DNA of 64,000 bases from an uncultured Methanosarcinaceae archaeon (GTDB taxonomy: Archaea > Halobacteriota > Methanosarcinia > Methanosarcinales > Methanosarcinaceae), in contig CAVSHT010000011.1 in NCBI GenBank assembly GCA_963727895.1, positions 224,001 through 288,000 on the forward strand. Reading direction: 5' to 3'. The notes beneath the pieces were generated by a model. It worked only from the letters and a program-made list of their open reading frames with translations. It was not told the origin of the DNA and ran no database searches. Both the position numbers and the translations under genes were made by a program. Shown here piece by piece: positions 6,589 through 40,762 of this stretch. The first letter of the stretch is position 1. Every line of letters starts with the position of its first letter.

Positions 6589-6830
6589 TCGTCCTATTGA
6601 GCGAAAGCCCAATCCTTCAAGATAGAGTTGTAAAGCCTGTCTTTTTACAGAGGCGGAAAAAGCAGTTGATTTTAGCTCTACTGTATAGTTATATCCACAA
6701 TCAGAGCATTTGTACCGTTGACGCCCGCCAACTATACCATTCTTTTTGTGATTAGAACTATTGCATCTGGGGCAGTTCATGCAGAAATATATGTTATAAG
6801 CATATATATCTATTTTTGATTACCAATGCT
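6589..6830 (-). mobile_element. 5' half of an IS1 cut by IS110
   Basis: InsA MNCPRC...LGFRSIGRF ends exactly at the IS110 right end; IS1 left end (A)GCATTGGTAATC at 6830. Confidence 0.9.
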
Positions 6831-6875
6831 AAAATAATTTGTAATTATCATTGCATTTTATAATTTTGCTTTAAC

Positions 6876-8713
6876 TTATCTAAACAGAATATCAGAAACA
6901 AGCTTTTCTGAACTCTTTTCTGAAATAACCATTGCAATATCATTATATTCAAGTTTCAAGTTGCTATGTGCAATGAGTGATTCACTTCCACGTTGTATCA
7001 TAACCATGAGGCTATTTTCTGGAAAATTAATTTCCTTTATAGCTTTTCCCACAACTTTTGGATTGGTAACCTTGACTTCCATAATACTGCCTTTATCTCC
7101 AACTTCACACATCGAAAAAAGACTATTCCTTCCAATCATATTGTCCATGACTTCAGCCGTTGTTATTGTAGGGCTCATTGCTCGAATTCCTAGATCCCAG
7201 AATGCCTGAAGATTTTCCACATTGTTTACCCTGGAAACTAATTGTTCTCCTGTAAATCCAAACTTTGCCTTTGCAATCTGGCAAAAAAGTAGATTCGTAT
7301 CGTCCTTCTTTGTGGTTATAACTACATACTTTGCATTTTTAATTCCTGCTTTTTTCAGAACACCTATATCTGCTGCATTACCCTGGAAAGTCCTGATTCC
7401 TAAATCTCTACATTGTTGACATTCTTCTTCATAAATGTCTATAACTGACACATTTTCTCCTCGTGTATCAAATCTTTCTGCAAGGATTCTACCTACTGTT
7501 CCTCTTCCAATAATCAAAATTTCCATAGGAATAACCTCCAGTATCTGAGCTACTTTTTTTGACATGCTACCTGTCAAGAAAACAGTAATAATGACTGTCA
7601 GGAAAACCAGTCCTACTATAGTTTTGCCTCCTGGAATTCCCATTTCATCCAGTTTGAGTGCAAAATAAGTTGCAATAGAAGTAGGTACGACTCCTCTAGG
7701 TCCTACAAACAATATGAACATTTTTTCCTTGGTACTTATGTTTGAATTCTGCATCGAGATAAAAACAGATACAGGAAGGACAAACAATGCTATAAGCAAA
7801 ACTAAAATAATTCCGTTTAATCCCATTTCCATGATATACCAGAATTTAAGCATTGCCGCAAGCAAGATGAAAATGAGAGCAATCATTAAAGTCGCAAGAT
7901 TGCTATTAAATTCTTCTACCATTTTCTTTTGGGGAAATTCAGAAGACCCCATAATAATCCCAAAGATAGCCAATACAAGAATTCCAGATTCATTTCCCAT
8001 AGTTTCTGACAGTACATAACAGGCAAATATGAAAATAAGAGTAAGCAGTCTGACGGGCTGTTTTCCAATTGATAGTCCTCTGGTAAAAAACCATCTAAGA
8101 ATAAGCCCACTTAAGCTTCCTATAATTAACCCTATCCCAAGCCTCTGTAGAATAAAAATCATTGCACCTGTTCTGGAAAGCTCGGCTGTAATCCATTCAA
8201 ACACCATTGCAGTTAGAATTACACTTGCTGCATCGTTTAAGACACTCTCAAGCTCCAAAATCTTGGAAACTTTATGACTGATCTTGATATGCCTGATTAT
8301 TGGGCCAACAACACTTGGACCGGTTGCCGTAACCAGAGCTTTAAAAAGGGCAGCAATCTGGAGAGGGATATCTATGAGAAGGTTTGTAAGTATGGTTATC
8401 CCGAGAAAAGTGATAAAAACTCCGACTGTACTTAATTTTAAAACACTTTCTTTAACTCCTCTCAGGTGCTTCAAGTAGATCATAAATCCACCGTCAAAGA
8501 CAATCACAGAAACGCAGATTGAAACGATAGCGCTTAACGCATCGGAATAAAGAGCTGGATTTAATAAGTTTAGAACTTCAGGCCCTACTATTATTCCTTC
8601 AATAAACAGAAGATGATAAAAGGAATCTGAAATTAGTGGCTAAGAGCCTGGGCCAGTAGGGACATAACAAGCAAATCAATAACTATTTCCATTAAAAATA
8701 TAGGATCAATCAT
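6876..8713 (-). pseudogene. CPA1 cation:proton antiporter with TrkA-N/TrkA-C domains, 5' end disrupted
   Basis: ESVLND, GPRGVV and C-terminal RCK domains; upstream part MIDPIFLMEIV...ALSH* has a stop and a frameshift before the 543-aa ORF. Confidence 0.85.
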
Positions 8714-8959
8714 GAAATTTCCTGTAATAACATCTGTCTTACTTAATATATTTAGTTTATTCTGGGTTGTCAAATAAATGATAAATTTACGAATAGTATC
8801 TTAAGATCCCATATTTGTGTGGAAAGACACGTCTCAAAATCTTCATAATGTTTATAAATTAATATATTTAATTTATAAAGTTGCTCGGACTTTCATCAGA
8901 CAACTTAAAAATCCAGAATCTTTTTGAGATTCAACATATTTTCTCACTCATTCTTAGTC

Positions 8960-10731
8960 TCATTCTGAATCCCGGATTTTTTCAACGACTTTCTTGTTGT
9001 ATGAGTTTACAATGTCACTTCGGGTGATAAGACCAAGAAGCCTGGTTTTATCTTCTCTATCAACAATGGGTAATCTACCGATTTGCTTTGAAGCAAAACG
9101 TTTGAGGACAGCATCCAGGGTTTCGTCTGGATAAGCAACTTCCAGATTTTTGGTCGCAATATCTCCTATTTTTTTATCGGTTTCTCCTGCCTTTACTTTG
9201 CTTCGAAGATCTGAGAGAGTTACTATACCTGAGAGTTTGCCTTTGGGATCAAGAACCGGAAATCCTACATGTCGGCTTGCCTGCATAAGAACATTAAGGG
9301 CTTCGATACTTTATTCCTCAGAAACCGTTTGAACATGCATAACCATGGCATCTTTTACATACATGGAGCTCATGATATCAGCCTCTCTCCCTTTTCGGAT
9401 TTTAAATCCTTTTCTTCGGAGGCTTTCCGTGAAAATGGATTCAGGATACAGAGCATTTGACATTATATTGCTAAGAACGCAGGCAAACATGAGAGGAAGA
9501 ATCATACTGTAATCTCTTGTAAGCTCAAAAAGGATCAGAATAGCAGTCAAAGGGGCTCTTGCAGTTCCAGCAAAGACTGCACCCATACCAACAAAAGCAT
9601 AAGCTCCAGATTCTGCAACAAATTCAGGGAAAAAAAGTTTGCAATTGTTCCGAAGGCCCCTCCAAGCATTGGGCCTACAAAAAGAGAAGGAACAATTGAT
9701 CCACCTGACCCACCTGATCCAAGGCTCAGGGAAAAGGCGAGAATTTTGAGGAAAAGCAGGATTAGTAAAAGCTTGAAAGTAAACTGATTGCTAATAGCAT
9801 CCGTAATTACACCATATCCCATTCCAAGAACTCGTGGATAATAAAGGCCGATCATGCCTACTATCAATCCTCCCAGAGCAGGTTTAAAGATTGGATGGAC
9901 GGGTATTTCCGAAAACAGATCTTTTGTATAGTAAAGGGCGCGGATAAATAATGTTGAAACTATACCTGCAAGAAGCCCCAAAACAAGGTAAAGCCCTAAC
10001 TCTCTATATGGACTTACAAGTGAGTAAGAAGGAATCTTTAGAGTTTCTACTTTAATGATTGAATTTGATACAACTGTTGCAAAAACTGAAGAAATAACTA
10101 TCGGAATAAAGGTACTTGTTTCAAGTTCTCCATAAATCACTTCAACGACAAAAACCGCACCTGCAAGTGGAGCATTAAATGCTGCAGCTATTCCACCAGC
10201 TGCTCCACAACCAAGAAGAATTTGACGCTGCCGGTCTGAACTCTTTAGAATTCGTCCTAAAATAGCTCCTGTCCAGGCTCCACCTACGATTCCAGGAGCC
10301 TCTTTTCCAAGGGAACCTCCTGAACTAATTGATATTATTGACGTAAAAACTTCAAGAAAAAAATCTGTAAGATTCAGGCGAGCCCCTCGAAGAGCTACTG
10401 TTTCTATAAGACCATCGACTCCATAGCGTTTTTTAATACATAAATACGAAATAACACCAACAATCAGCCCTCCAAGAGCGGGCATGAATATTACATAATA
10501 ATGAGGAAACTCGTGTAAAGAAAATCCGCGTTGCATTCCAAAAAAGGTATTGAAATATTCTAAGGCGCGTTCATATAAGCCTATTACCAGACCTGTGAGA
10601 AGACCAATTATGATTGCAATTGAATTGATCTTTGAGGATTCGGTATCAAGGCTTTGAGTAATATGTAATTTTATATGAGAATATTCACGTAAACCATGTA
10701 ATCTAATTTTGTGTTTTTCGTTAATTTCCAA
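8960..10731 (-). pseudogene. CLC chloride channel/antiporter with CBS pair, two frameshifts
   Basis: GKEAP, AAAFNAPLAG, GGSGG and CBS domains spread over ORFs 9547-10731, 9311-9586 and 8960-9286. Confidence 0.88.
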
Positions 10732-11434
10732 ATACTAACGCCTCTGTGAGCCTTTTTTCAGAATTTGCTTTAAAGTTTAGATTTTTATTTATTTTTTGAC
10801 CAAACGCGGATACTTTATTTGTTTTCGTTTGTCTTGAATTTTAAATCAAAAACGATTAACATTGAGGCGCGAATTAGATCTTTTTCTCTTGTTCAAGATT
10901 TCCTTTTATAATTTAACTTTTTTCATAGCTTTAACTTACATTTTTCATCACATACTCTTTTACCATCATGAAATTTTTCTGGTTAACGAGGAATGTATAT
11001 TTAAAAGGCAAGCTGTAGGGCTTATGATAACAGGTCATGATTTTGAGCAGTTTTTTGACTATACCTGTAAACTTTGTAACAGGTAATTAATATGCTACAT
11101 GCAATCAGTCTGTGTTATCAATAAATTTTAAGTTTATAAACATTAAAAATGTTTTCACAACTATAAAATTTATTGAATATGTGGTTTCGCTTACTTTTTT
11201 ATAAGGCATTTTATAACTTTAAAGTAGGTAAACAAGGATCTTCTAGTTATTATGAAAACAGAATCCTAAATATCTAAAGTTAATTTCAGAATCATGGGCA
11301 CGGAATATAAATTGAGCTATCTATATGAAAATAATTATAAAATTTTTATATCAAAAATAATTTAACTTATTATTAATTAGTAAAAAGTATCTAAAAAAGG
11401 ACGAAAAAAGTAGATTGGCCTTTCCATTTCTTAT

Positions 11435-13729
11435 TTATGTGTAAAAAGGACTCTCTATTTCTTTCGACTGCCTTTTTCTCAGGCCACCCTGTATAGCCTG
11501 GTAGTATTTCATGGTATCAGGCGTAACAGAAGGGCCAGTTTCAGCAATTGCTTGAATGAAATGTTTGTGCTTTACCTCTTTAGCGTGAAGGTTTTCACGA
11601 AGTGCGTCTCTTCCTGCTTTTTTGCATACCGCTGCAATGTCTGCACCGGTATACTGATCTGTAAGAGTAACAAGTTTGTCAATATCAACATTCTCTGAAA
11701 GCACCATTTTTTCGGTATGAACTTTAAATATTTCCTTTCGAGCTCCGGCGTCTGGAACGGGAACAAGAATTAACTCGTCAAAACGTCCAGGCCTTAGAAG
11801 AGCTGGATCTATAATATCAGGACGGTTTGTTGCTCCTATTACTACTACAGATCTGAGTTCTTCCAGACCATCCATCTCGGAAAGAAGCTGATTCAGGATT
11901 CTAGCCGTAACCTGTGGCTCTCCTACAGAAGCTCCGCGAATAGGTGCAAGAGAATCCAGTTCGTCCAGGAAGATAATAGACGGAGCAACTTGTCTTGCCC
12001 GTGTAAAAACTTCAGCAATCCTTTTTTCAGATTCTCCATACCATTTGGAGAGTAAATCGCTTCCCTTGGCTGTGATAAAGTTTGCCTCTGATTCATGAGC
12101 TATTGCCTTTGCAAGTAAAGTCTTTCCAGTACCTGGAGGACCATATAGAAGAACACCTTTAGGAGCTTCAACCCCTATATCTCTATAAGACTCTGGATTT
12201 TTAAGAGGCCATTCGACGGCTTCTTTCAGAAGTTGTTTTACTTCCTCCAGGCCACCTACATCTTCCCAACTTACATTAGGAACCTCGATAAGAATCTCTC
12301 TTATCGCTGAGGGCTGGACATCTTTCATGGCATTTTCAAAATCTTCCCTTGTGACCCTAAGTGTATCAAGAATCTCACTTGGAATTTCAGGTTCATTAAG
12401 GTTAATTTTTGGAAGAATCTTTCTCAAAGAACTCATTGCTGCTTCCCTGCAAAGCGCAGCAATATCCGCTCCCACAAATCCATGAGTTATTTGAGCAAAA
12501 TCCATGAGATTTACATTTTCAGCAAGCGGCATACCTCTTGTGTGAATCTGGAAAATCTCCAGCCTTCCTTCAGTATCTGGAGCTCTTAACTCAATTTCTC
12601 TGTCAAATCTACCAGGGCGGCGAAGTGCCATATCAATTGCTTCAGGACGGTTAGTTGATCCTATCACAATTACATTTTTGCGGGTTTTAAGTCCGTCCAT
12701 TAATGAAAGAAGCTGAGCAACTACTCTTCGTTCTACTTCTCCGGTAACCTCAGCTCTCTTAGGAGCTATTGAATCTATTTCGTCAAGGAAAATAATTGCA
12801 GGAGCATTTTTCTCTGCTTCTTCGAAAATATCTCTGATCCCTTTTTCTGACTCTCCATAGTATTTGGACATGACCTCCGGACCATTAATTGAAATAAAAT
12901 GGGCATCGGACTCGTTTGCAACTGCTTTGGCAAGCATGGTTTTGCCTGTTCCTGGAGGTCCATAAAGTAGTACTCCTTTTGGAGCATCAATACCGAGTCG
13001 GTCAAAAAGTTCAGGATGCTTTAAGGGCAACTCTATCATTTCTCTTATTTTGGTGATAGCGTCTTTAATTCCACCCAGATCCTCATACATGACGGTAGGA
13101 ATATTTTGTTCTGGAGTTATTTCTGCAGCTTCAGGTAAGAGTTCAACTTCTGTTGTATCTGTAATCTTCACTATCCCCGACGGGGAAGTGGAAATAACCT
13201 GTAATTTTATTTCTCCTAATCCAAAAGACTGACCTATACCTGGACTAAAAAAATCCTGAAAAAAATCTTCAAACATGATTCCTTTTCCGAAAGTTTCCCT
13301 TTCTCTAGATTGTCTCAGGCTTGTGGTTGAAATAAAATCTCCCTTTGAAACCGTACGATTCATAAATATAGCTTTGAGAGTTTCACTTGGAGCATAGATT
13401 TGCATACCCTTGGCTACAGGAGCAAGAATTATACTCTTTGCTTCTTTCCAGGTGGCTTTGCGAATCTCGATATACTCTCCTATACTGGTTTTTGCATTGG
13501 TACGGATAAGCCCGTCCATTCGGATAATATCCAGGCCGGAATCACTGGGATATGAGCGTCCTATCAAAGCTGAAGTAGATTTCCCTCCTATGATTTCCAC
13601 AACGTCAAAAGGTTTGAGGCCCAATCTTTCCCTGAAATTGTCATCTACCCGGACGATCCCTTTTCCGACATCTCTTTGATCAGATTCTGCAACTTTTAAT
13701 TTTGCATTTATTTTTTCCCTGTCAGTCAA
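11435..13729 (-). CDS. cdc48: CDC48/VAT family AAA ATPase
   Basis: Two AAA modules (GPPGTGKT twice; IIFLDE; RPGRFD) plus N-domain. Confidence 0.95.
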
Positions 13730-13916
13730 GCAATATCCCCCATCTTTCCACTCTCCATTTTGTATTATATTGATAGCTATATAAAAAGAAATCAGCTGAA
13801 ATGTTTACCAGCAGATGAGTTGCTTATGAGTTGCTTACCACAATAACTCTATTTTTTATTAGTAAATTTATCTCAAACAAAAAAAGTACTACTCATGGTT
13901 GTCAGGAATCTAAAAA

Positions 13917-14564
13917 TCATATGATGTTTAATGAATTCAATCCCATTTTAACAAAAGCCAGGCCAAATACGATCTGTATAATTCCTAAGATGTGAATTAT
14001 CAAAAAATAATATTTACTACTGATAAACGATTTTGATCTCTCTACTATTAGTGTTATAATTACTTTAGATCCTACAAGGAAGATATAGAATCCCAATATG
14101 AATAAAATTGCATTTGAGACATGAGTGCTCAGGGATTTAAAAATTATAGGACCTCCTATGGAGATCCAGAAGATATATGGATGTGGATTTCCAAAGTTTA
14201 CAATAATTCCTTTTTTAAGAGCATTATTTTTTTCTAATTTTAGTTCTACAATGCTTGAGTTAATTTTTAGGGATTTAATTCCTGAATAAATGAGATAAGA
14301 TGCACCAAAAAATGCAATAATTCCGATAATGGAATTGTAGTTTGTCAAATGTGAGAGAAGAAACAAGATAGCTAGGATTATTGGCAGATCTGTAATTAGA
14401 GGAGACATTGCAACTTTTATTCCTTCCCATTTGCCGTGCTTCAGAGTCTCAGAAATAGTTACAGCCAGTAATGGGCCTGGAGATGTTCCTGAAGCAAGGC
14501 CGAGAAATGATCCAAGAACTAAAAACTCAAAAAAATCCGACATCTTCAATGCCTCATTTTTCAT
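13917..14564 (-). CDS. LysE family translocator
   Basis: SPGP motif, GNPH, hydrophobic, 215 aa. Confidence 0.85.
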   Translation of the reverse strand: MKNEALKMSDFFEFLVLGSFLGLASGTSPGPLLAVTISETLKHGKWEGIKVAMSPLITDLPIILAILFLLSHLTNYNSIIGIIAFFGASYLIYSGIKSLKINSSIVELKLEKNNALKKGIIVNFGNPHPYIFWISIGGPIIFKSLSTHVSNAILFILGFYIFLVGSKVIITLIVERSKSFISSKYYFLIIHILGIIQIVFGLAFVKMGLNSLNII

Positions 14565-14766
14565 ACATCAAATCAGAGAATTTACCTTCAGTGGTTACCA
14601 GACGTGAGTTCCGAATTCAGTTAATTAAATGTCTATTAAATATATAATCTGAAAGTATATTACAGTACACTATTGGTATAACATATACGTTAATGTTGTA
14701 TATAATATTTTTATTTTATCTAAAGTTTGGGGCTTGAAACCTTTGTACTTTAGAAAAAAGAGGTTT

Positions 14767-15519
14767 TTATGCCTCTATTTTTGAAAACAGAATTGCTCCA
14801 ATCATACAGACAAGAATTGAGAGCGAACCTATTATTGCCAAATCGCCATGTATGCCAAATACGCTCATTCCAGCAATGGCACCTCTTAAGCCATCCACTC
14901 CATAAGTAAGTGGATCAATTCTGCTTATAAAATAGATCGCAGATGGCAGGTTGTCAAGGGGGAATAGGGCGCCAGATAGGAAGAATATTGGCATAATCAG
15001 GAAGTTCATAATAAGCTGAAAGCCATGCATATCTGTCATTTTTGCGGCTATGGCAAGTCCAATACCTGTAAAGAAGATAGCTATCAGGAACATAAAAATC
15101 AGTCCTAGTACAAGGCCTGCAATGCTTGGGATTCTGAATCCAAGTAGATAGGTCAGGCTTAGCACGATCAAACCCTGGATCATAGCTATGGATGCGCCTC
15201 CAAGAGTTTTTCCGATCATTATATCTGTCCTTGATATAGGAGCTACCATAGTTTCTTTAAGAAACCCGAATTGTCTGTCCCATATGACCTCAAGTCCAGA
15301 AAATATAGCAGTAAAGAGAATTGACATGGCAACAATACCCGGTGCAAGAAAATCCAGATAGTTTCCCCCTCCACTTGCTTTGGTATACATAGGACCAAAT
15401 CCGAACCCAAATGTCACCAGAAAGAGAATGGGCTGCCCGAGAGAACCCAGCAGCCTGGATTTGGAGCGCCAATAGTGTTTTAGCTGCCTAAGCCAGAGAA
15501 TATAGATTACTTCTATCAA
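14767..15519 (-). CDS. ABC-2 type exporter permease
   Basis: DRQFGFLKE, FFLSGALFP, PLTYGVD. Confidence 0.92.
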   Translation of the reverse strand: MIEVIYILWLRQLKHYWRSKSRLLGSLGQPILFLVTFGFGFGPMYTKASGGGNYLDFLAPGIVAMSILFTAIFSGLEVIWDRQFGFLKETMVAPISRTDIMIGKTLGGASIAMIQGLIVLSLTYLLGFRIPSIAGLVLGLIFMFLIAIFFTGIGLAIAAKMTDMHGFQLIMNFLIMPIFFLSGALFPLDNLPSAIYFISRIDPLTYGVDGLRGAIAGMSVFGIHGDLAIIGSLSILVCMIGAILFSKIEA

Positions 15520-16316: not shown

Positions 16317-16577
16317 GGGTAAACCTTAAACGCTTTTTTTTCAATAAGAAAAGGCTGAATTGTAGAATTTCTTTTGCCAAATCTCTTTTATTAGAACTTT
16401 TCCGGTTCAGTCTGGCTTTGGAGAAATTCTCTGAAATTTTTGCAGGAAAGAAGTATTTGTGTTTTATTGTTTTGCGGATTCCGTTATGATTTTTTATTGT
16501 TCTGAGAGGAACAAAGTATACAAATTCATCATAAACCTATATTATAAAATTTATAATAACATTTGTTATTCTGTTCT

Positions 16578-16633
16578 TCAACATTTATCAATTCAACATT
16601 TATCAATTCAACATCTATCAATCCAACATTTAT
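16578..16633. repeat. 15-bp tandem repeat, about 4 copies
   Basis: TCAACATTTATCAAT units, intergenic. Confidence 0.8.
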
Positions 16634-18105: not shown

Positions 18106-18146
18106 GCGGAAAAAGTTAACAGTATGTAATTAAGAGGAAAAACTAA

Positions 18147-18746: not shown

Positions 18747-18749
18747 AAA

Positions 18750-18990: not shown

Positions 18991-18998
18991 TACTTTTT

Positions 18999-25277: not shown

Positions 25278-25327
25278 GTTAAATACACCTCAAAAATGAA
25301 ATCTTGATTTTATATTATACGCTTTTA

Positions 25328-30225: not shown

Positions 30226-30413
30226 CCAGATCACCGTGTTTGGAAGTAGTTTTTAACATTGAGTAAACTCTTATTAAGTAAACTCTTATTAATTCTGTTT
30301 ACTACTTTTTTAATTAACAACTATATTTAATTTCAATTTATAGTTTCAGCTGTTAAATTATATATATTTTTGCTAACTACTATAGTTTATATTAGCTGAA
30401 GCTCCTGATTTAA

Positions 30414-31205: not shown

Positions 31206-31288
31206 TACTTACCTTCCCTGCACTGAAAGATGATATAGATTGCGCAAAAGTCGTTCATTCATCAATCTTCAATTTAATCCACTGAATC

Positions 31289-32002: not shown

Positions 32003-32351
32003 CTTTTATCGTTCTGAATTCAAAAAACCCTATTTAATAGTAACGAGCCTTGTTCATAATTATATTTAAATCCATTTATATAATCCTGTATTCTCTCATT
32101 TGAAGTACAAAATCGCACATAATAGACGTTGTAATCAAATCCTTTTTGGGACGTTGATAATTAAATATACCTATTTCTCAGTTCAACCTATTAAGTCCTT
32201 TTATATTGATTATGGGCTTTATAGAAGACTTATTTAAGTTCGTCTCTAGAAGCTAAATAAATATATGTAAAAATACATCTATCTATTCAGTTAAAACTAG
32301 TCTTTGCTTCATTAATCATATCAATACAAAATCTTTTAGTTTCTACTGCTA

Positions 32352-33598
32352 ATGTTCATGTCCACAGACCTCTTGCAGTAAATTTGATTTGAATCTTCTG
32401 ACATATTTGTAAAAACAAATCAACATCTATAGTCAATAGGCTAAATACTACAACTTTATTGAGATACAAAATGTTATTTTTTGCAGCAATTATGGGCGTT
32501 ACTATATGTCTGAAATATACGTTTATAAATGGGAGGATATCCAAAAATATTTTCCACCTGAAAGAGTGGCAGAAATTCGAGCCAAAATCCTTGAACTGCG
32601 AAAATCTGGAAAATATACCGATAGAGAACTGTGGGAAATGTATGGAATGAGCGAACGTACTTTCTATTATCTTGTTGAAAGAGCAAAAGACGGAAGTAGA
32701 GCAGAAGACTTGAAGGACACGCCTTCGAAGCCTAAAAATCCATATCGAAAGCTAACGGATGAAGATAAAGCTGAAATAATAAATCTCTATTTGAATAATA
32801 CAAACAAAATCGAATCATCTAAACATGCGTTTGTTGATGCAATGGAAAAAACAGACCATGTCTTAAAATCAGAGAGAGTACAGCAATTGACGGGATTAAT
32901 GGATAAAGCTGTGAAGGGAGTTCGAAGAATTGCAGCTTCATTCAATAAAAAAAAAGAGAACAAAGAAAGCTCAGTTTGTGTTGGCAAATCATGGGTTCAT
33001 CATATTCTTGCTATTGCTGGGCTTACTGGAAAACAGAAGACGGCTATAAGTTCCAAACATCTTCAACGCCCTCAAGAACCATTGAGCTCTTTCAATATGG
33101 ACTATACTCAACGGAGAATTGGAAATGGTGAGACTGCGTATGTTTTTGGTGTACTTGATATTTTTAACAGTGGTATTGTAATCCTTGATGCCCATAAGAC
33201 AAAATCAGGTGCGAATGTGGTAGAATCTCTTCACCAATTACGCAAAATAGTACCAAAAGATGTTGTAATCGAGATTCGATCTGATGGAGGTTTGGAGTTT
33301 AATAATGCGACTGTGCGTGAATATTGTAATAAAAATAATATTATACATCATATTCTTCCAAAGGCACATCCGTGGTTGAACGCTTTCATTGAACGAGCAA
33401 TAGAGACTTTGCAATATGAATTCATAAATTTACAATACCATGCAACGTTTAATGATTTTCAGAAATTTCTTGTGATTACTAAAAATGGATACAATTTACG
33501 TGAGCATTCATCATTCAACTATCGAAGTCCAGTGGAAATATGGAATTCTTCGGAAGTTTCATTGAGTGTTACTGCAAGAGGTCTGTGGACATGAACGT
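32352..33598 (+). mobile_element. IS481-like element with 30-bp terminal inverted repeats
   Basis: IRs 32352-32381 and 33569-33598 match 29/30; flanked by TA. Confidence 0.9.
32506..33594 (+). CDS. DDE (rve integrase-core) transposase, intact
   Basis: N-terminal HTH, FNMD, RSDGG...IER with D(35)E spacing, YNLREHSS. Confidence 0.9.
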   Translation: MSEIYVYKWEDIQKYFPPERVAEIRAKILELRKSGKYTDRELWEMYGMSERTFYYLVERAKDGSRAEDLKDTPSKPKNPYRKLTDEDKAEIINLYLNNTNKIESSKHAFVDAMEKTDHVLKSERVQQLTGLMDKAVKGVRRIAASFNKKKENKESSVCVGKSWVHHILAIAGLTGKQKTAISSKHLQRPQEPLSSFNMDYTQRRIGNGETAYVFGVLDIFNSGIVILDAHKTKSGANVVESLHQLRKIVPKDVVIEIRSDGGLEFNNATVREYCNKNNIIHHILPKAHPWLNAFIERAIETLQYEFINLQYHATFNDFQKFLVITKNGYNLREHSSFNYRSPVEIWNSSEVSLSVTARGLWT

Positions 33599-34518
33599 TA
33601 ATCCAATGCTAAATACTTCTGGGTTAAATATCAAATCATTTTTAACGTTAATTATTTTATTAAAAACCGGTAACCAGGGGATGTCGTCTCTAATTGTTGG
33701 GGCTTTTGTGTGTGAATTATGGATATGGAATCCTTTTATTGATTCTTCAGGTATCATTTCAATGTTATTGATAAAATGACTATTTACATTGTTAGAATAA
33801 TTCTTGGATACTTGTGTATACATAGTCCTGAAATCTACAACGAAGCCTATATGCTTCTGATATGAAGGATGATTCTTAACTAAATACTCCCAAAATTATT
33901 TCATCTGTATGCCATTTGAAATTACATGTCCTGTCCTATTTTCAATAAGAATTGTTTGCTTCACTTTAGATTCTTTTTTAAAATTATTAAATAATTTTAT
34001 AGCAGATTCAGCAATGAATTGATTTGTATTAGGCTTTTTTCCTGGATGAATTTCTATCACGGAAGGAGGTAATCCAATGTGCTTAACAATATCGATGTTC
34101 ATTTCTATAAATTGACTTACCCATGGTTCACTATACCACTTTAAATAGCATTTAGAGGCTAGAGCCGGTTCTGTGTGAAAAATATATTTAATATCTTTTG
34201 GAAGTTTATCGTCTTTCAAATATAATTTATTTATAGCTTCTTTTGTTAGAAATTCACCAACACTTAATCCTAAAAATTCAGTTTCGGTGTTTCTGACAAA
34301 ATGAGCAGGTACCTCTACAAAATAAAACTATATTGTTTTGCTTTTACCCATCGATTAAGTAATCCCCTTCTACAATTTTTAGAGTTAACTTCACCTACAT
34401 TAGGAAATACAAACCATGTTTCACTTATACACACCAAAATAATTATTACTGTTTACCCGCTTATTATACTTTTGTTGACTTCATGGTTCTTGACAGCTTG
34501 CAGCAAATCTCTTCAATC

Positions 34519-35607
34519 TTATAGTAAATATCTTCTTGAACTCAAGACTGATCTGAGAATCTCGTCACTTCCAGCCTTTTCGATTTTGATGTCAGAAGAC
34601 TTTTCAATTATCTCAAAATTGAAGGGCAAACGCTTCCTAACTTCTCCTATAAGCTGAAAATCACCGTTAAGAAAAACATAATCAATAAACTTATTTTCTT
34701 CTAGAATCTTATCCAGTACCTCGATGACTTTGTCCATGTGATGCGCGATGTCTTCTTCTCTCAGGCGCTCAAAGCGGCGCTGGCTAAAGCCTCCTTTGCT
34801 GTGTTTTTCCTTTACGCTGCTGCGGATAAGTTCCTCAGTATCAAAAAGCCTCCCATCGGCAGTAAAACCTATGAAGGATTCACCAGCATGCAGGACAAGG
34901 ACTAAAATGTGGTAACTCTCACTCAAACTCTCTTCAAGCAAAGAAACATCAAAACTGTGATCACACTGCCAGAATGGTGAAGCAATTGGGATAGGAGGGA
35001 CTATAGCTTCGCATACCATGCGGTGAATATCATAGAAAAGTACAAATCCGGTTTCAGGTTCAAGCCTCTCAAGAAGCGTAAGAATTTTCTCTTCTATGCT
35101 TTCAATAAGCTTTTCACTTAGTACTTCTGATACGCGAGTATTCGGAGGCAAGTAAACAGTCAGCAAGTCGTCTGCCGGAGCTTGAAAGGATTTGAGTTTA
35201 GACAGGTAAGCCTGAACAGCTTGTAGGCTCAGAGTTTCAATTCCACGGAACTTCAGTTTGTCCTCTGATTCAGTTCTAATAGTTTCGATCTCGTGGGATA
35301 GAGTCTGAGTTCGAATACGTTCCTGGTTTAAAAGGGCTTCAACTTCCTGTCTGTCCGCTACCGCCTGTCGTGCAAGACCCTCTCTTTTTTCAAGCTGGAT
35401 TTTTGCACTCTGCATGTCACGTTCCAGTTTAATGATCTGCGAGTTGAGTCGCTCTACCTCAAGTTCAAGTTCTCCTTTTCCTGAAATTTTTCCTATCAAT
35501 GTACTAAAACCCTTTTTCGTACCTTTAGAGGTTTCTTTTTTTGCTTTTTTGTCGTTAATTTGCCTCCCTCCTGCCCATGCGTAACTGCTTTGCGAAAATA
35601 GCTTCAA
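34519..35607 (-). CDS. VLRF1 (Vms1/ANKZF1-like) release-factor-fold protein with coiled-coil N-terminus
   Basis: KHSKGGFSQRRFERLR motif; start uncertain. Confidence 0.75.
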   Translation of the reverse strand: MKLFSQSSYAWAGGRQINDKKAKKETSKGTKKGFSTLIGKISGKGELELEVERLNSQIIKLERDMQSAKIQLEKREGLARQAVADRQEVEALLNQERIRTQTLSHEIETIRTESEDKLKFRGIETLSLQAVQAYLSKLKSFQAPADDLLTVYLPPNTRVSEVLSEKLIESIEEKILTLLERLEPETGFVLFYDIHRMVCEAIVPPIPIASPFWQCDHSFDVSLLEESLSESYHILVLVLHAGESFIGFTADGRLFDTEELIRSSVKEKHSKGGFSQRRFERLREEDIAHHMDKVIEVLDKILEENKFIDYVFLNGDFQLIGEVRKRLPFNFEIIEKSSDIKIEKAGSDEILRSVLSSRRYLL

Positions 35608-36015
35608 GTGTAACCTTTCCGGTAGAAAGTTTGACCAATGGTCTTATCTGGCTTGTGGTCAAGCGAGTAATTAAAATTTTTGTGAATACGTTTGTCGAAA
35701 ACTCTAGATACAGCGCAACGTTTGAGGCTCAATGTTTGAGATATTAATAAGTAAGAGTTATTTATATAGACTCTTTGTCAATTTTAATCCTTTGTATTTC
35801 GAAAGTTTTATGAATATCATATTGAATGTCAGTTTGCTTTCAAGAACATTTTCTGAAAAGCAAAATGAGTTAAAAAATTATTGCCAGTTTATTAACCTTA
35901 TAGATCACTCTGCTGCCCGAATATAATTTTTCGTTGACAGTTCTTTAAAACAAGATGGGCAGAAGGACTCAAACCGAGAAATACCCGATCAAATAGATCG
36001 GATCGAGTAGATGAA

Positions 36016-37275
36016 ATGGATAAAGAAGAACAACAAAAGGCCACCAGGTCCAGAGCCGAAAAATTTCATCCCACACTCTGGATCCAGGGACAGAAGAGTT
36101 CTTCCCTCGCTGGAAAGACCATAGCTCTTGGCATTACGGGAAGTATTGGAGCGGTCAGGGTAGTTGAACTTGCAAGAGAGCTGATAAGAAATGGGGCTGA
36201 AGTTCATGCTGTTATGACAGAGGCTGCTACGCACATCCTGCACCCTGATTCTCTTTATTATGCTACAGGAAATCCGGTAATTACCGAAATTGGAGGCAGG
36301 GTTGAGCATGTAGAATTTTGCGGGCTCAAAGGCAGAGCTGACCTTCTCCTTATAGCTCCCTCAACTGCAAACACTATCGGAAAAATTGCATACGGAATCG
36401 ATGATACTCCGGTAACTTCATTTGTAACAACTGCTCTTGGTTCTGGTATACCAGTGATGGTCGTTCCTGCAATGCATGAATCAATGTTCAGACATCCTGC
36501 TGTAGCTGAAAATCTTGTGAAATTGAAAAGCTGGGGAATCTCTATTGTGGGTCCCAGGCTTGAAGAAGGAATCGCAAAAATTGCGGCAAATGAAGAAATT
36601 GTGCTTGAGGTAGAAAGGACTCTCGGAAATAAAACCCTTAAAAACAAAAAGATAATTATCACGAGCGGTTCTACTGCTGAAAGCCTGGACCCAATCCGAA
36701 TCCTGACTAACCGGGCTTCAGGAAAGACTGGCAGAGAACTTGCCCTTGAAGCTTATCGCAATGGGGCTGATGTAACCCTTGTCCATAGGAATCGAATTGG
36801 ATTTGCAAGGATAAAGGAGATTTTTGCAGAAAGTGCAGCAGACATGACAGATGCTGTACTCCTAGAACTTGAGAAAAATTATGATGTCCTCATCAGTTCG
36901 GCAGCTATTGCAGACTATACAACCGATTTTTCTCCCGAAAAGATCAAATCGGGAGGTGAACTTACTTTAAAATTGAAACCAACTCGTAAACTGATAAAAG
37001 AATGCCGTGAAAAATACCCTGATCTCATGATTGTTGGTTTCAAGGCTGAAACCGGGGTTGAAAAAGAGGAACTCCTAAAAAGAGCAACTTTGACTCTTAA
37101 AACGTCAAAACTTAATCTTATTGCAGCAAACGATGTCGTAAAAGGCGGAATGGGTACAGAAGAGAATGAACTTTATCTTTTAAGGTCCAAAAAAAGCGAA
37201 CCCAGGCATGTAAGTGGTAATAAACGCAAAATAGCAGCTTCTATTCTCGAAGAAGTAGCTGAGTTATTAATATAA
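36016..37275 (+). CDS. coaBC: Phosphopantothenoylcysteine decarboxylase/ligase
   Basis: LGITGSIGA, PSTANTIGK, PAMHESM, DPIRILTNRASGKTG, VGFKAE. Confidence 0.96.
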   Translation: MDKEEQQKATRSRAEKFHPTLWIQGQKSSSLAGKTIALGITGSIGAVRVVELARELIRNGAEVHAVMTEAATHILHPDSLYYATGNPVITEIGGRVEHVEFCGLKGRADLLLIAPSTANTIGKIAYGIDDTPVTSFVTTALGSGIPVMVVPAMHESMFRHPAVAENLVKLKSWGISIVGPRLEEGIAKIAANEEIVLEVERTLGNKTLKNKKIIITSGSTAESLDPIRILTNRASGKTGRELALEAYRNGADVTLVHRNRIGFARIKEIFAESAADMTDAVLLELEKNYDVLISSAAIADYTTDFSPEKIKSGGELTLKLKPTRKLIKECREKYPDLMIVGFKAETGVEKEELLKRATLTLKTSKLNLIAANDVVKGGMGTEENELYLLRSKKSEPRHVSGNKRKIAASILEEVAELLI

Positions 37276-37412
37276 TTATTCTGCTGTAATATACTATCAG
37301 ATTATTCCACAATTATCAGATTATTCTACAAAAGTCCGGAAATATTCCGTAAAAATTCTGTAAAACAGGAACGAACTTTAAAAATGACTGAATTGATAAA
37401 AAGGCGTTTTTT

Positions 37413-38315
37413 ATGTATGAGTATGAAAATGAAGGAGCAGACCTTTTGACAAAAGCTTATGCTCCAGGACATATCACAGGGTTTTTCCAGATTCACGAGC
37501 ATGAAAACCCTCATCGTAAAGGATCAACAGGCTGCGGAATCGTTCTTAACGGCGGCGTAACCACCGAAGTTCAGGTCGGAGAAGCAATAGAAAAAACTGA
37601 AATTTTCCTTAACGGAAAAAGGGTCGAAGGAAAAACTACCCGAACAGTCGCAGAGATGATGACTGAGTTACCTGTAAAAATAAAGAGCTGGGCAGAAATT
37701 CCAACAGGATGCGGGTTTGGAGCTTCCGGTGCAGGAGCTCTTGGGACAGCCTATGCTCTAAATAGGGCACTTTCCCTAAATCAGACCGTAAAAAGCCTTA
37801 CTGAATATGCCCACGTAGCCGAAGTTGTTAACTGCAGCGGACTTGGAGATATTGCTGCCCAGTCCAATGGTGGGGTAGTAATCAGGCTACAGCCAGGTGG
37901 TCCAGAGTTTGGGCTTATAGATAGAATTCCAGCTCCCGAAGCCAGAGTTTTTTGTATTGTTCTTGGTGAGATCTCTACTGGCTCGGTTCTGAGGGACGAA
38001 GCTGCAGCCGAAAGAATTAATATTGCAGGAAAAATTGCAATGTCTGAACTGCTTAAAAAACCCACTCTTGAGAATTTTATGCAGCAGGCACAATCATTTG
38101 CCAGTAAAACCGAACTTATGAGCAGCAGAGCAAAAGATGTGATTGAAGCTGCAAACGCATTTGGAGGACTTGCTTCCCAGGCAATGCTTGGTGATACAGT
38201 TTTTGCGATTGCCCCTAATTCCCAGGAATTTGCTCTCTATGAAACTCTCCAGGAATTCGGACAAGTACTGGAATACGGAATCGGTACCTGTGTGCCGAAG
38301 TTAATGAATGAATAA
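37413..38315 (+). CDS. pok: Pantoate kinase (GHMP family)
   Basis: PGHITGFF, GSTGCG, PTGCGFGASG, SQAMLG; CoA cluster context. Confidence 0.92.
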   Translation: MYEYENEGADLLTKAYAPGHITGFFQIHEHENPHRKGSTGCGIVLNGGVTTEVQVGEAIEKTEIFLNGKRVEGKTTRTVAEMMTELPVKIKSWAEIPTGCGFGASGAGALGTAYALNRALSLNQTVKSLTEYAHVAEVVNCSGLGDIAAQSNGGVVIRLQPGGPEFGLIDRIPAPEARVFCIVLGEISTGSVLRDEAAAERINIAGKIAMSELLKKPTLENFMQQAQSFASKTELMSSRAKDVIEAANAFGGLASQAMLGDTVFAIAPNSQEFALYETLQEFGQVLEYGIGTCVPKLMNE

Positions 38316-38507
38316 GTTCAGCAGAACACATTTTGAATAAAGTAAATAGGGTATGTATAGAGTGTTAGTGCAGGTGTTTTACCTGAGTGATCTGAAATAA
38401 TCAGGTAATTAAAACAGGCAATTATACCAAAACTAATGAAATTAATTTGCTGATTTATAATATACTAAAAGGACTAAAAATGAACTAAAAAAAGGCAAGC
38501 GACTAAT

Positions 38508-39269
38508 ATGACCGAGATTCCAAAAGATCATCCAAGGTATGAATCCCTGTTAGCCCGTGAAAAAGTTGCATCCGGAGTAAAAATGGGAATTACAAGTATT
38601 CAAGGGCTAATTTCCCAGGGAAGAGGAGAAAGTTTTGATTACCTTATAGGAGAAAGAAGCACCAAATCGGCCCTGAACGCTGAAAGAGCTGCAGTTGCTG
38701 CCATTCTCCTGGCAAAAAATCCTGTAATTTCTGTAAACGGTAATGCAGCGGCTCTGGCTCCTGATAAAATTGTTGCTCTTGCAGACGTTACAGGGGCAAA
38801 GCTTGAAGTGAATCTTTTTCATAGAACTGAAACAAGAGTTCACCTTATTATAGAACAACTAAAAGCTAACGGGGCTTCTGAGGTGCTCGGTAAAAATCCG
38901 GATGCGAGCCTTGAACTCTCTCACGACAGGCGGCTGGTAGAAAGCCGAGGGATCTATTCAGCAGACGTAGTGCTTGTTCCACTGGAAGATGGAGATAGAT
39001 GTGAAAAGCTTGTAGAAATGAGAAAGACTGTTATAACTATTGACCTGAACCCCCTTTCACGAACCTCAAGGACAGCTACAATTTCAATAGTTGATAATCT
39101 TACTAGGGCTCTCGAAAATATGATCAGGTTCAGTATGGATCTGAGAAAGGAAAGAAAAGAAGAACTTGTAAAATTAATCACAACTTATGATAACAAAAAA
39201 GCCCTTAATGAAGCGATTTCTGAAATTCAGGAACATCTTAAAGTTATGAGTGTAGAATTGGAACGTTGA
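38508..39269 (+). CDS. pps: Phosphopantothenate synthetase
   Basis: IPKDHPRY, GRGESFDY, SVNGN, VPLEDGDR, IDLNPLSRT. Confidence 0.94.
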   Translation: MTEIPKDHPRYESLLAREKVASGVKMGITSIQGLISQGRGESFDYLIGERSTKSALNAERAAVAAILLAKNPVISVNGNAAALAPDKIVALADVTGAKLEVNLFHRTETRVHLIIEQLKANGASEVLGKNPDASLELSHDRRLVESRGIYSADVVLVPLEDGDRCEKLVEMRKTVITIDLNPLSRTSRTATISIVDNLTRALENMIRFSMDLRKERKEELVKLITTYDNKKALNEAISEIQEHLKVMSVELER

Positions 39270-39925
39270 GTATGGAATTAATTGAAAAAACAAGGGAATT
39301 TGTAGCTACTTTTCTTGAAGGAGAACCAAGTTCCCATGATATGTCCCATATAAACCGGGTAGAAGCTTTTTGCCTGGAAATTCAAAAAGAAGAAGGTGGA
39401 GATCTTCTCATATTGCAGCTTGCAGCTCTCCTTCATGATGTTGGCGTTATTAGAGAGCACGAAGAAGGTGGGGACCATGCCGTATATAGCGCAGAAATTG
39501 CTTTTGAGTTCCTTTCTAAAGCAGGGCTCGAAAAAGAAGTTATTGAAGCTGTTACAAACTGTATTCGGACACACCGATTCAGCTCAGGAGAAATCCCGGA
39601 GACTCTCGAAGCCCGAATTTTGCAGGATGCCGACCGGCTTGATGCCCTTGGAGCAATAGGAATTTTCAGGTCCATTCTTTCTATGGGAGCTCTCAGGATG
39701 TTAAAATATACAACAGGGATGGATAAGGGAAGTTCAAAAAGAACTGTGTATATTGAAGACCCTGTTGAAGGCTTTAACGAATATATGCAGTATAAACCTT
39801 TCACGATTCCTGAAAAGTTGAATACTGATACTGCGAAAAAGATCGCCGAAGAAAGACTGAAAATCATGCGAATTTATCTTAAAGCTCTGAACCTTGAGGC
39901 CGGAATTGATGAAAGAGGGCTCTAA
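39266..39925 (+). CDS. HD-domain phosphohydrolase
   Basis: HDMSHINRV, LLHD, DADRLDALGA. Confidence 0.9.
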   Translation: MSMELIEKTREFVATFLEGEPSSHDMSHINRVEAFCLEIQKEEGGDLLILQLAALLHDVGVIREHEEGGDHAVYSAEIAFEFLSKAGLEKEVIEAVTNCIRTHRFSSGEIPETLEARILQDADRLDALGAIGIFRSILSMGALRMLKYTTGMDKGSSKRTVYIEDPVEGFNEYMQYKPFTIPEKLNTDTAKKIAEERLKIMRIYLKALNLEAGIDERGL

Positions 39926-40052
39926 GAGTTATCCGAAAAGTATTGTTACCTATTGTAATTTTTAGAGACTTTTTATTATTTTTGATATTTATTACATATA
40001 TAAAACAGAAGATAATTCACTGCTTCAAAATCTGTCTACACAAATTGATTTT

Positions 40053-40121
40053 TAAAAAACACAAAAAATTCGTGGGAAGAATGAATTGAATTAATAAAAA
40101 ACCTTATTCTTTTCTGATGAA
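40053..40121 (+). pseudogene. Remnant of the hicA 3' end
   Basis: Close similarity to 2452-2520 (GGGAAGAATG.ATTGAATTAATAAAAA.CCTT.TTCTTTTCTGATGAA). Confidence 0.75.
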
Positions 40122-40762
40122 CGCAACAATTGAATAAAAACGAAATTCGTATATAGTCTTTCGTAATATGTAAAACTGATTTTTATAAGTAGGTATTGAG
40201 GAGGGAGTAATTCCCCCCTCTTTGTGCACTAACACAATCCGTTTTTTAAGCACATTGAGTAAAGTATTCGCATATCTCGTTTTTTAGTACTATAAAAGTT
40301 TTACTCAATCGTTTGAGTTAGACGTTTGTTTTTAAAGCTAGTGTCATATGACTTAGCTTTAGTGACTGATCTATTGTATCATAGTATATATACTTATTTA
40401 TATTTGTTATTTTTTATGTTAATACTTTTTATATTTGATTACTGCGCTAGTTTTTGCCTGATTCATGGGTAATTTGATCTGGATCGCTTGGACAGTCGCA
40501 ATTAAAAAAGGATTATCTGTGTAAAGTCAGAAAACAGTAAGTCGCTTAGAGAAATATCAGTATTTTTCTCAGGTTTATGTACCTGAACTGAGAAATAGTA
40601 ACAAATATTAAAATGTTCGTATTTGATATAGAATATCTAAAAATTGAGAGAAAAATAAGTGATTTTTCTTTTAAAATACGAACATTATAGGTCAAAACGT
40701 TCGTGTATCAAAGTGCCCCGTAAAATTAGATTTTAGCATGAAAGTACATGAGGAGATTATCC

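What the first reader, a model, noticed from the sequence alone, without database searches (positions are those of the whole stretch)
6589..40730. ~34-kb inversion between two inverted IS110 copies, shown by swapped flanks
Seen: the 5' half of an IS1 (...LGFRSIGRF, minus strand, 6589-6830) abuts copy 1. The matching 3' half (LGVSHVSVQRW..., plus strand, 42269-42593) abuts copy 2. Flipping 6589-40730 rejoins this IS1 around copy 2, with outer flanks AATTATTTT/GAATATTTT (7/9, a possible old target duplication). It also restores the second target TTTCCCTAAAATCTA around copy 1, and places coaBC-pok-pps-HD co-directional with and upstream of dadD-ahcY. From memory (unverified) these genes are neighbours in M. 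mazei. Inference: inversion by homologous recombination between the copies or by the IS110 recombinase; it may still be flipping in the population.
Basis: partly seen in the sequence, partly recalled or inferred. Interest (0 to 1): 0.72.

Follow-up and report, generated by a model that had tools for sequence, protein, structure and literature searches.

The report
IS110 flank swaps inverted 34 kb
Two oppositely oriented copies of a mobile element in a methane-making archaeon have exchanged their surroundings, turning a 34-kb gene block around; this is an ordinary kind of rearrangement, but a third copy elsewhere in the genome was also involved.

Summary
The observation mostly holds. Two inverted 1.53-kb IS110-family copies (5051-6588 +, 40731-42268 -) bracket 34.1 kb. 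Each has one IS1-family half and one non-IS flank.

The two non-IS flanks fit together as one site. It lies inside a repeat unit that is uninterrupted elsewhere in the genome. In 11 of 11 congeners with both genes on one contig, HD sits directly upstream of dadD. So the block is inverted relative to dadD-ahcY.

The two IS1 halves are not halves of one element. The 5' half (6589-6830) shares a perfect 8-bp target duplication with a 3' half beside a third IS110 copy on contig C8. Contigs from two other metagenomes show that empty site.

At least two exchanges among three IS110 copies are therefore needed; a 34-kb flip is one of them in two of the three possible orders.

Homologous recombination is the likeliest mechanism. 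The recombinase gene is broken in both copies, and the IS110 copies are mosaics of each other.

No available run holds this organism, so assembly error and ongoing flipping remain untested. This is a textbook process in an IS-riddled genome; interest is low to moderate.

The parts
5051..6588 (+). IS110-family copy 1. The body runs from about 5057 to 6583, with CTAAAA (5051-5056) and CTAAA (6584-6588) at the two junctions. The recombinase gene is broken by a 20-nt tandem duplication and an extra stop.
40731..42268 (-). IS110-family copy 2. It differs from copy 1 at 20 alignment columns. Its recombinase gene is broken by the same 20-nt duplication.
6589..6830 (-). 5' part of a 740-bp IS1-family element, cut at the IS110 target site. 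Its outer flank AAAATAAT (6831-6838) is the target duplication shared with the 3' part at contig C8:96141-96645.
42269..42593 (+). 3' part of a different IS1-family copy, with a 166-nt internal deletion. Its outer flank is GAATATTT (42594-42601). No partner 5' part was found in the assembly.
6831..40730 (.). The block now inverted relative to dadD-ahcY. It runs from the K+/H+ antiporter (6876-8507) to coaBC-PoK-PPS-HD (36016-39925).
4987..5050 (+). Left half of the second (non-IS) IS110 target. It lies in a repeated intergenic unit on the dadD side.
40603..40730 (-). Right half of the second IS110 target. It is the continuation of the same repeat unit, on the HD side.
3..1791 (-). ahcY (N-terminal part, 3-359) and dadD-like deaminase (493-1791). 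In relatives these are the downstream neighbours of HD.
36016..39925 (+). coaBC, pantoate kinase, phosphopantothenate synthetase and an HD phosphohydrolase. These are collinear with relatives up to the HD stop.
3593..4334 (+). Full-length IS1-family copy used as the reference. Further copies lie at 25328-26067 and about 54040-54709.

Best explanation
A 1.53-kb IS110-family element in this genome normally sits at one fixed site inside a 740-bp IS1-family element. One copy also landed in a look-alike site in the HD-dadD spacer.

The IS110 copies are 98-99% alike. They then acted as portable homology for the host's homologous recombination.

Exchanges among at least three copies re-sorted their flanks. 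The three are the HD-dadD copy, a copy in an IS1 between a contig-C8 sequence and the antiporter gene, and a copy in an IS1 next to Hsp20.

The net result in the window is that the 34.1-kb block from the antiporter to HD is inverted relative to dadD-ahcY and now abuts Hsp20.

What is shown:
- the flank pairings;
- the ancestral HD-dadD adjacency;
- the ancestral adjacency of the C8 sequence and the antiporter.

What is inferred:
- that the exchanges were homologous recombination inside the IS110 bodies;
- their number and order. In two of the three possible two-step orders, one step is an in-place 34-kb inversion.
For: (1) Target habit. Of 24 IS110 left ends, 13 abut the IS1 3' part at the same site. 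Of 24 right ends, 16 abut the IS1 5' part. Ten copies have both. A contig of run X1 carries the same nested arrangement.

(2) The non-IS flanks belong together.
- They align as one continuous unit to uninterrupted copies of a repeat at C3:~51.6k and C14:~56.1k.
- The site matches the IS1 target in 16 of 19 positions, by hand alignment of the sequences.

(3) Synteny at HD-dadD.
- Fifteen congeners were searched. HD and dadD lie on one contig in 11 of them.
- In all 11 the genes are adjacent and co-directional. The gap is 223-606 nt in 10 genomes and 3,481 nt in G014.
- In G001 the dadD upstream sequence follows HD after 1.47 kb, at the contig end.
- The stretch from the PHP gene to HD to dadD is collinear in G011, G012, G014 and G006.
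- In G068 a 57-nt homologue of the dadD-side flank lies 321 nt from the HD-downstream homologue, in the un-inverted relative orientation.

(4) Third copy.
- An 856-nt contig of run X2 covers 6831-7054 with 2 differences. It then continues with 30 letters that are 30/30 identical to C8:96111-96140. Run X5 shows the last 14 of these letters.
- C8:96133-96140 and window 6831-6838 are both AAAATAAT, each directly beside an IS1 end.

(5) Homologous recombination.
- Both copies carry a 20-nt tandem duplication that breaks the recombinase frame. Seventeen of 21 aligned copies have it, and only one copy has an open 390-aa ORF.
- The 55 informative sites are mosaic among copies.
- Copies 1 and 2 are mutual nearest neighbours in the right 915 columns (6 differences, next best 8). 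In the left 617 columns they differ at 14 positions.

(6) Flank shuffling is general in this genome.
- Only 25 of 84 full IS1 copies keep a perfect 8-bp duplication.
- Among IS110-bearing IS1 copies with both outer flanks read, only 1 of 6 does. There is also a second cross-copy match, between C4:122621 and C4:54050.
Against: - No read evidence exists for the assembly's path through any of the three 1.5-kb repeats.
- The partner of the Hsp20-side IS1 half was not found. The C8 copy's other IS1 flank does not match it either (5/8), so the three-copy account is incomplete and may need more events.
- The T2 flanks are absent from relatives as such. The spacer DNA at 1952-5048 and 39926-40731 is specific to this genome apart from repeat pieces.
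- G068 has no dadD within 3.2 kb of the flank homologue.
- The signal that copies 1 and 2 are each other's nearest neighbours is weak (6 against 8 differences).
- A variant in the 20-nt repeat is shared by both copies and by 3 copies without IS1 flanks. A single reciprocal crossover between an IS1-borne parent and a non-IS1 parent does not explain this without gene conversion.
Confidence: 0.72

Rival explanations
1. One reading: one reciprocal exchange between exactly these two copies, one originally inside a single IS1 and the other in the HD-dadD site. Flipping 6589-40730 would then restore both original sites.
For: - The copies are inverted and bracket the block.
- The non-IS flanks are reciprocal.
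- The outer IS1 flanks agree at 7 of 9 positions.
Against: - At least 7/9 occurs in 3.4% of random flank pairs, and this IS makes 8-bp duplications.
- The 5' half has a perfect 8/8 partner on C8, with the empty site seen in contigs of two runs.
- The 3' half carries a 166-nt deletion and another duplication.
- The antiporter and Hsp20 are at least 177 kb apart or on different contigs in 5 of 5 relatives mapped.
Confidence: 0.08
2. Assembly artefact. The assembler threaded wrongly through near-identical 1.5-kb IS110 repeats, or joined strains with different arrangements. The real genome would then have the un-swapped flanks.
For: - For inverted repeats all short junctions are the same in both orientations, so only molecules spanning 1.5 kb can decide.
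- The genome is a 19-contig draft of 84% completeness with many split genes.
- No reads could be laid.
Against: - An assembly that holds 196 left and 234 right ends of a 740-bp repeat and 24 IS110 copies in 19 contigs must rest on long molecules.
- Each IS110 copy keeps private variants.
- Three separate mis-threadings would be needed, and even then the third pair would not have matching duplications.
- Duplication mismatch is genome-wide: 50 of 84 full IS1 copies match at fewer than 7 of 8 positions.
Confidence: 0.12
3. The IS110 recombinase itself, guided by its bridge RNA and recognising only the element-end half of each junction, exchanged the right-hand flanks of two integrated copies. 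Homologous recombination would not be involved.
For: - Bridge recombinases catalyse inversion between oppositely oriented sites (PMC11208160, passages read).
- Donor-half recognition alone suffices for recombination in vitro (abstract of 10.64898/2026.08.31.748434).
- One copy with an open 390-aa ORF could act in trans.
- All junctions carry CTAAA(A).
Against: - The recombinase is broken in both copies and in 17 of 21 aligned copies.
- No such end-with-end reaction is described in the passages read.
- The IS bodies are mosaics, which homologous recombination or gene conversion explains.
- No bridge RNA was demonstrated. Rfam gave no match and the fold z-score was -1.13. The 7-nt matches of the left end to the targets are within chance expectation.
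Confidence: 0.06
4. No exchange took place. The copies inserted independently next to IS1 remnants, and other events (IS1-IS1 recombination, deletions) produced the present order.
For: IS1-IS1 recombination is clearly frequent. Only 25 of 84 copies keep a perfect duplication.
Against: - The IS1 parts end exactly at the IS110 target position, as in the 10 canonical copies.
- The two non-IS flanks are the two halves of one site.
Confidence: 0.02

Closest known systems
Chromosomal inversion by homologous recombination between inverted insertion-sequence copies
   Same: Inverted near-identical IS copies bracket the flipped block. The flanks are exchanged, and relatives keep the other order at one breakpoint.
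   Different: The flanks of three copies are permuted, not two. The second breakpoint cannot be traced in relatives. Neither orientation has been seen in reads.
IS110-family elements that home into repeated DNA: ISPpu9 and ISPpu10 in REP or intergenic repeats (PMC12288879 and 10.64898/2026.03.19.712850, start of abstract in the search listing only; PMC1525189, title in the listing only), and IS621 (PMC11208160, passages read)
   Same: - It has a DEDD domain plus the IS110 C-terminal domain.
- It uses one fixed target site, with a short shared motif at both junctions.
- About 240 nt of non-coding left end precede the recombinase gene.
- It is multi-copy because its target is multi-copy.
   Different: - The target is inside another IS (IS1 family), in an archaeon.
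- Related elements in other Methanosarcina records use other sites, and no IS1 homologue lies beside them.
- The bridge RNA has not been shown.
Programmable inversion by bridge recombinases (Durrant et al. 2024, PMC11208160, passages read)
   Same: The same enzyme family can invert DNA between two oppositely oriented sites.
   Different: That reaction joins a donor site and a target site and does not leave two intact element copies with swapped flanks. Here both copies stay intact and their recombinase genes are broken.
Flank-swapped group II introns in IS66
   Same: A site-specific mobile element is nested in an IS, and the flanks come from different host-element copies, so a single inversion is not enough.
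   Different: The element class is different. Here one breakpoint is anchored by synteny in 11 relatives.

Membership tests
IS110 family | [quoted passage not shown] | tested here: met
   The open 390-aa copy (C4) scores 63.5 bits against a cut-off of 29. The window copies match NF033542 in two pieces.
IS110 family | C-terminal domain, PF02371 | tested here: met
   It scores 91.8 bits against a cut-off of 21.3.
IS110 family | Site-specific insertion without terminal inverted repeats, with a short core shared by both junctions | tested here: met
   - 13 of 24 left ends and 16 of 24 right ends lie at the same IS1 position.
- 21 of 24 left junctions read CTAAAA; two read CTACAA and one left end is truncated.
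- 23 of 24 right junctions read GCTAAA.
- Terminal inverted repeats were not searched for formally.
IS110 family | Bridge (seeker) RNA encoded in the non-coding end, with loops matching target and donor | tested here: inconclusive
   - A left end of about 240 nt precedes the ORF.
- No Rfam match was found.
- The fold is no better than shuffles, with z = -1.13.
- Several 7-nt matches to the target flanks are within chance expectation.
IS110 family | Circular excised intermediate | not testable with these tools
   This needs reads or experiments. No run holds the organism.
IS1 family (the 740-bp host element) | IS1-type transposase (zinc-finger/HTH N-terminal part and DDE part) | tested here: met
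   - NF033558 scores 118.4 and 125.8 bits against a cut-off of 100.
- The C-terminal ORF scores 99.2 bits.
- PF03400 scores 54.7 bits.
IS1 family (the 740-bp host element) | About 0.75 kb long, with terminal inverted repeats and 8-9-bp target duplication | tested here: met
   - The ends lie 727-763 nt apart.
- The terminal motifs are GGCATTGG... and ...CAATGCC.
- A perfect 8-bp duplication is present in 25 of 84 copies, against 0.19% of random pairs.
IS-mediated inversion by homologous recombination | Two inverted copies with reciprocally exchanged flanks | tested here: inconclusive
   The non-IS flanks are reciprocal. The IS1 flanks are not, because the partner lies on contig C8.
IS-mediated inversion by homologous recombination | Relatives carry the other order at the breakpoints | tested here: inconclusive
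   - This is met at HD|dadD in 11 of 11 genomes.
- It is not met at antiporter|Hsp20 in any of 5 genomes.
- The antiporter's earlier neighbour is the C8 sequence.
IS-mediated inversion by homologous recombination | Molecules spanning each repeat confirm the assembled path (and possibly the other one) | not testable with these tools
   - The best run holds 0.32 of the sampled words.
- The four runs laid are all Logan's contigs, and none spans the stretch.
- The contigs that cover the IS110 body differ from it at many positions, for example 19 differences in the 1,620-nt X1 contig.

The most novel reading that the evidence does not exclude
The flank exchanges are not host recombination. They are natural chromosome re-arrangement by the RNA-guided IS110 recombinase acting in trans on the ends of integrated, defective copies (recognition of the element half only). 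If so, this archaeal genome would be shuffled by a bridge recombinase, and the 34-kb block could still flip in the population.
Probability: 0.06. Interest if true: 0.7.

Novelty: new member of a known kind. Interest (0 to 1): 0.3.

Why it matters
The event itself is a standard IS-mediated inversion and probably has little effect on the genes. In relatives, HD and dadD are separated by a spacer of 223 nt or more.

Three points are worth keeping:

(1) This is a clear archaeal example of a site-specific IS110 element nested in a high-copy IS1. That nesting creates many 1.5-kb homology patches, and the genome is visibly shuffled through them.

(2) It is a caution for reading swapped flanks. In an IS-rich genome, two halves that look as if they rejoin may come from different copies. 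Target duplications and empty sites in other samples are needed to pair them.

(3) It offers a set of natural target sites (one IS1 site plus look-alikes) for anyone who wants to test bridge-RNA targeting by an archaeal IS110.

Tried and rejected
- Empty second target in relatives. BLAST of the spacer flanks against 8 relatives' HD-dadD regions found only the genes. A genus-wide search of 58 congeners found only repeat pieces, plus the G068 hint.
- Partner of the Hsp20-side IS1 half. Pattern searches for its 8-mer beside an IS1 left end gave no exact match, only four to five candidates with one mismatch. A candidate IS1 at C5:281162-281830 has its own perfect duplication.
- Earlier neighbours of Hsp20. 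In G004, G011 and G012 these neighbours map to contigs C5 and C13 of this genome, not to the window.
- Flanks of the antiporter in G003, G009, G004 and G011. These held other repeats, not the C8 sequence.
- ClC channel near Hsp20. In 4 relatives a ClC gene lies 13-22 kb from Hsp20 in the present relative orientation. I set this aside because those hits are 72-76% identical, while a better 79% hit lies elsewhere in G004 and G011. They are probably paralogues.
- Crossover mapping inside the IS. The 20 differences are spread along the element and the parents are unknown.
- Sequencing runs. No run holds half of the words. All four runs laid are Logan's contigs, and none bridges an IS110 copy with this genome's unique flanks.
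- Two metagenome-contig scans, with a 21-nt dadD-side flank and a 24-nt antiporter-side flank, gave 0 matches each.
- Rfam search of 4900-6900 gave 0 matches at E <= 1.
- The scan's own notes on this genome held nothing.
- Literature. The searches listed no paper on IS110-mediated inversion in Methanosarcina. This covers only the held library and those terms.

Full report
**What is in the window**

The repeat finder reports one long inverted repeat, with arms 5112-6588 and 40732-42208 (1477 nt, 99%). Reading the ends and BLAST against the whole genome extend it across a T7/T8 indel to about 5049 and 42270. The aligned copies differ at 20 columns.

Both copies encode IS110-family recombinase pieces matching NF033542. 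Copy 1 scores 52.8 and 163.3 bits, copy 2 scores 87.1 and 156.8 bits, against a cut-off of 140. An open 390-aa version on contig C4 has PF01548 (63.5 bits) and PF02371 (91.8 bits).

Every junction carries CTAAA(A), so the ends are ambiguous by 5-6 nt. I place copy 1 at 5051-6588 and copy 2 at 40731-42268.

**The host element**

The short repeat that abuts both copies is a 740-bp IS1-family element. NF033558 scores 118.4 and 125.8 bits against a cut-off of 100, and PF03400 scores 54.7 bits.

BLAST of 80-nt end probes finds 196 left ends and 234 right ends in the 3.67-Mb genome, of which 154 pair at 690-780 nt.

The piece at 6589-6830 (minus strand) is the first 242 nt of the element. The piece at 42263-42593 (plus strand) is the rest, with 166 nt deleted.

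**The IS110 element targets the IS1 element**

The genome holds 24 IS110 left ends and 24 right ends. Thirteen left ends abut the IS1 3' part and 16 right ends abut the IS1 5' part, always at the same IS1 position. Ten copies have both. A 1,620-nt contig of run X1 shows the same nested arrangement in another sample.

Related IS110 elements in other Methanosarcina records (80-94% protein identity) sit at other sites. No IS1 homologue lies beside them in the 54 loci fetched.

Copies 1 and 2 are hybrids. Copy 1 has a non-IS left flank and an IS1 right flank, and copy 2 has the reverse. Other hybrid and non-IS copies also exist.

**The non-IS flanks are two halves of one site**

In IS110 orientation, the left flank of copy 1 and the right flank of copy 2 read through as one unit of a repeated intergenic element. 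Uninterrupted copies of this unit lie at C3:~51.6k and C14:~56.1k, and local alignments run across the junction. My join dropped four letters, which shows as a small gap.

The rebuilt site resembles the IS1 target in 16 of 19 positions with one gap. This is my hand alignment of the sequences. That explains why an IS110 copy landed there.

**Relatives**

Fifteen congeners were searched for HD and dadD. HD was found in 14 and the dadD orthologue in 12.
- Both genes lie on one contig in 11 genomes. In all 11 they are adjacent and co-directional, with HD upstream. The gap is 223-606 nt in ten and 3,481 nt in G014.
- In G002 the two genes sit near the ends of two contigs.
- In G001 the contig ends in dadD's upstream sequence, 1.47 kb after HD.

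The stretch from the PHP gene through rrmJ, coaBC, PoK and PPS to HD, and then dadD, is collinear in G011, G012, G014 and G006. In the window, HD (plus strand) and dadD (minus strand) lie 37 kb apart. So the block is inverted relative to dadD-ahcY.

In G068 a 57-nt homologue (89%) of the dadD-side flank lies 321 nt from the HD-downstream homologue, in the un-inverted relative orientation. G068 has no dadD within 3.2 kb, and this flank is part of a repeat. I count this as a weak hint only.

The antiporter and Hsp20 are 177 kb to 2.4 Mb apart in G004, G012, G014 and G006, and on different contigs in G011.

When four runs were laid on 4335-9000, an 856-nt contig of run X2 covered 6831-7054 with 2 differences. 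It then ran on with 30 letters that are not the IS1 element; run X5 shows the last 14 of them. Those 30 letters occur once in this genome, 30/30, at C8:96111-96140.

That position is exactly beside the outer end of an IS1 3' part, which abuts the left end of another IS110 copy (C8:96646-98174). The 8 letters next to the IS1 end are AAAATAAT on C8 and AAAATAAT at window 6831-6838.

This IS makes 8-bp duplications. Twenty-five of 84 full copies have a perfect one, against 0.19% of random pairs. So the 5' half in the window and the 3' half on C8 are the two halves of one IS1 insertion, and other samples still carry that empty site.

The 3' half in the window has a different flank, GAATATTT. I found no partner for it.

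**History**

Write each IS110 copy as (left flank | right flank). The starting state was (dadD side | HD side), (C8 | antiporter) and (Hsp20 | unknown). The present state is (dadD side | antiporter), (Hsp20 | HD side) and (C8 | something).

This is a three-way permutation and needs at least two exchanges. In two of the three possible orders, one exchange is an in-place flip of the 34-kb block. In the third order, the block's ends are re-joined in two larger steps.

The right IS1 flank of the C8 copy does not match the Hsp20-side half either (5/8), so more events may lie behind it.

Flank shuffling is general in this genome:
- 50 of 84 full IS1 copies have duplications matching at fewer than 7 of 8 positions.
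- Among IS110-bearing IS1 copies with both outer flanks read, 1 of 6 is perfect, 1 of 6 matches 7/8 and 4 of 6 do not match.
- There is a second perfect cross-copy match, between C4:122621 and C4:54050.

**Mechanism**

I favour host homologous recombination within the 1.5-kb IS110 bodies, for four reasons.
- Both copies stay whole with swapped flanks, which is the product expected of crossing-over between repeats. The described bridge-recombinase inversion joins a donor site and a target site instead (PMC11208160, passages read).
- The recombinase frame is broken by a 20-nt tandem duplication in 17 of 21 aligned copies, including both window copies. Copy 1 has a further stop.
- The 55 informative sites are mosaic among copies.
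- Copies 1 and 2 are mutual nearest neighbours over the right 915 columns (6 differences, next best 8). They differ at 14 of the left 617 columns. This signal is weak.

A recombinase-driven exchange in trans cannot be excluded. One open ORF exists, and a 2026 preprint reports that recognition of the element half alone suffices in vitro (abstract only).

A bridge RNA was not shown. Rfam gave no match and the fold z-score was -1.13. The 7-nt matches between the left end and the target flanks are within chance.

**What stays open**

No served run holds this organism. The best share of sampled words is 0.32, and all four runs laid are contigs, none of which spans an IS110 copy with this genome's unique flanks.

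The assembled path through the three repeats, and any mixture of orientations, are therefore untested. I give misassembly about 0.12. An assembly with this repeat load in 19 contigs must rest on long molecules, each copy keeps private variants, and three mis-threadings would be needed.

The many split genes and the 84% completeness could be decay or indel errors.

**Verdict**

This is a real and ordinary kind of event: IS-mediated rearrangement. It is well anchored at one breakpoint.

The nesting of an IS110 element in a high-copy IS1 element in an archaeon is a modestly new example of a known habit of the family. I found no paper on it with the searches; this covers only the held library and those terms.

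Noticed in passing
whole genome G000; window 3593-4334, 25328-26067, 54040-54709: There has been a massive expansion of one 740-bp IS1-family element. BLAST finds 196 left and 234 right ends. Only 25 of 84 full copies keep a perfect 8-bp duplication, so IS1-IS1 recombination seems rampant.
   Followed up: partly
window 5740-5780 and 41545-41585; all IS110 copies: A 20-nt tandem duplication inside the IS110 recombinase gene shifts the frame in 17 of 21 aligned copies; one copy has four units. Four copies have a single unit, and only the copy at C4:393022-394533 has an open 390-aa ORF.
   Followed up: yes
window 40603-40730 and 4987-5050; G000 C3:51572-51778, C14:19740, 24520, 44919, 56098, 67901: A repeated intergenic unit of 130-200 nt contains an ACGAAC...GTTCGT inverted repeat and an A/T-rich tail. 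It has at least 10 copies in this genome and further copies in 20 of 58 congeners. Its function is unknown; it could be a promoter, a regulatory site or a MITE.
   Followed up: partly
window 22604-25277, 8960-10731, 18999-20019: PEP synthase is split into 4 ORFs, a ClC channel into 3 and a sugar kinase into 2. Together with 84% completeness, this suggests either gene decay or indel errors in a long-read-only assembly.
   Followed up: no
window 27231-28160: Seven tandem copies of a 105-nt unit (61-80% alike) lie inside a TPR-repeat protein gene.
   Followed up: no
window 2452-2520 and 40053-40121: A 69-nt direct repeat (88% identity) lies on the dadD side and the HD side of the two IS110 copies. 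In the un-inverted order it would be an inverted repeat.
   Followed up: no
L029-L043, L054-L062 (Methanosarcina spelaei MC-15 records): A related IS110 (88-94% protein identity) lies at the ends of many short contigs of this draft. Its flanks mostly end in AGAAAA and begin with TAAG. This is a different and seemingly looser target than in the window's genome.
   Followed up: partly
G000 C6:20884-25505: One IS110 copy carries an insertion of about 3 kb inside its body.
   Followed up: no
window 56173-58152: The Mre11 homologue is 659 aa, against a 361-position profile matched in two stretches. It may carry an inserted domain.
   Followed up: no
window 32506-33594 and 53024-53967: There is an IS481/IS3-like transposase gene, and two fragments of an IS630-family transposase next to an IS1 copy.
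   Followed up: no
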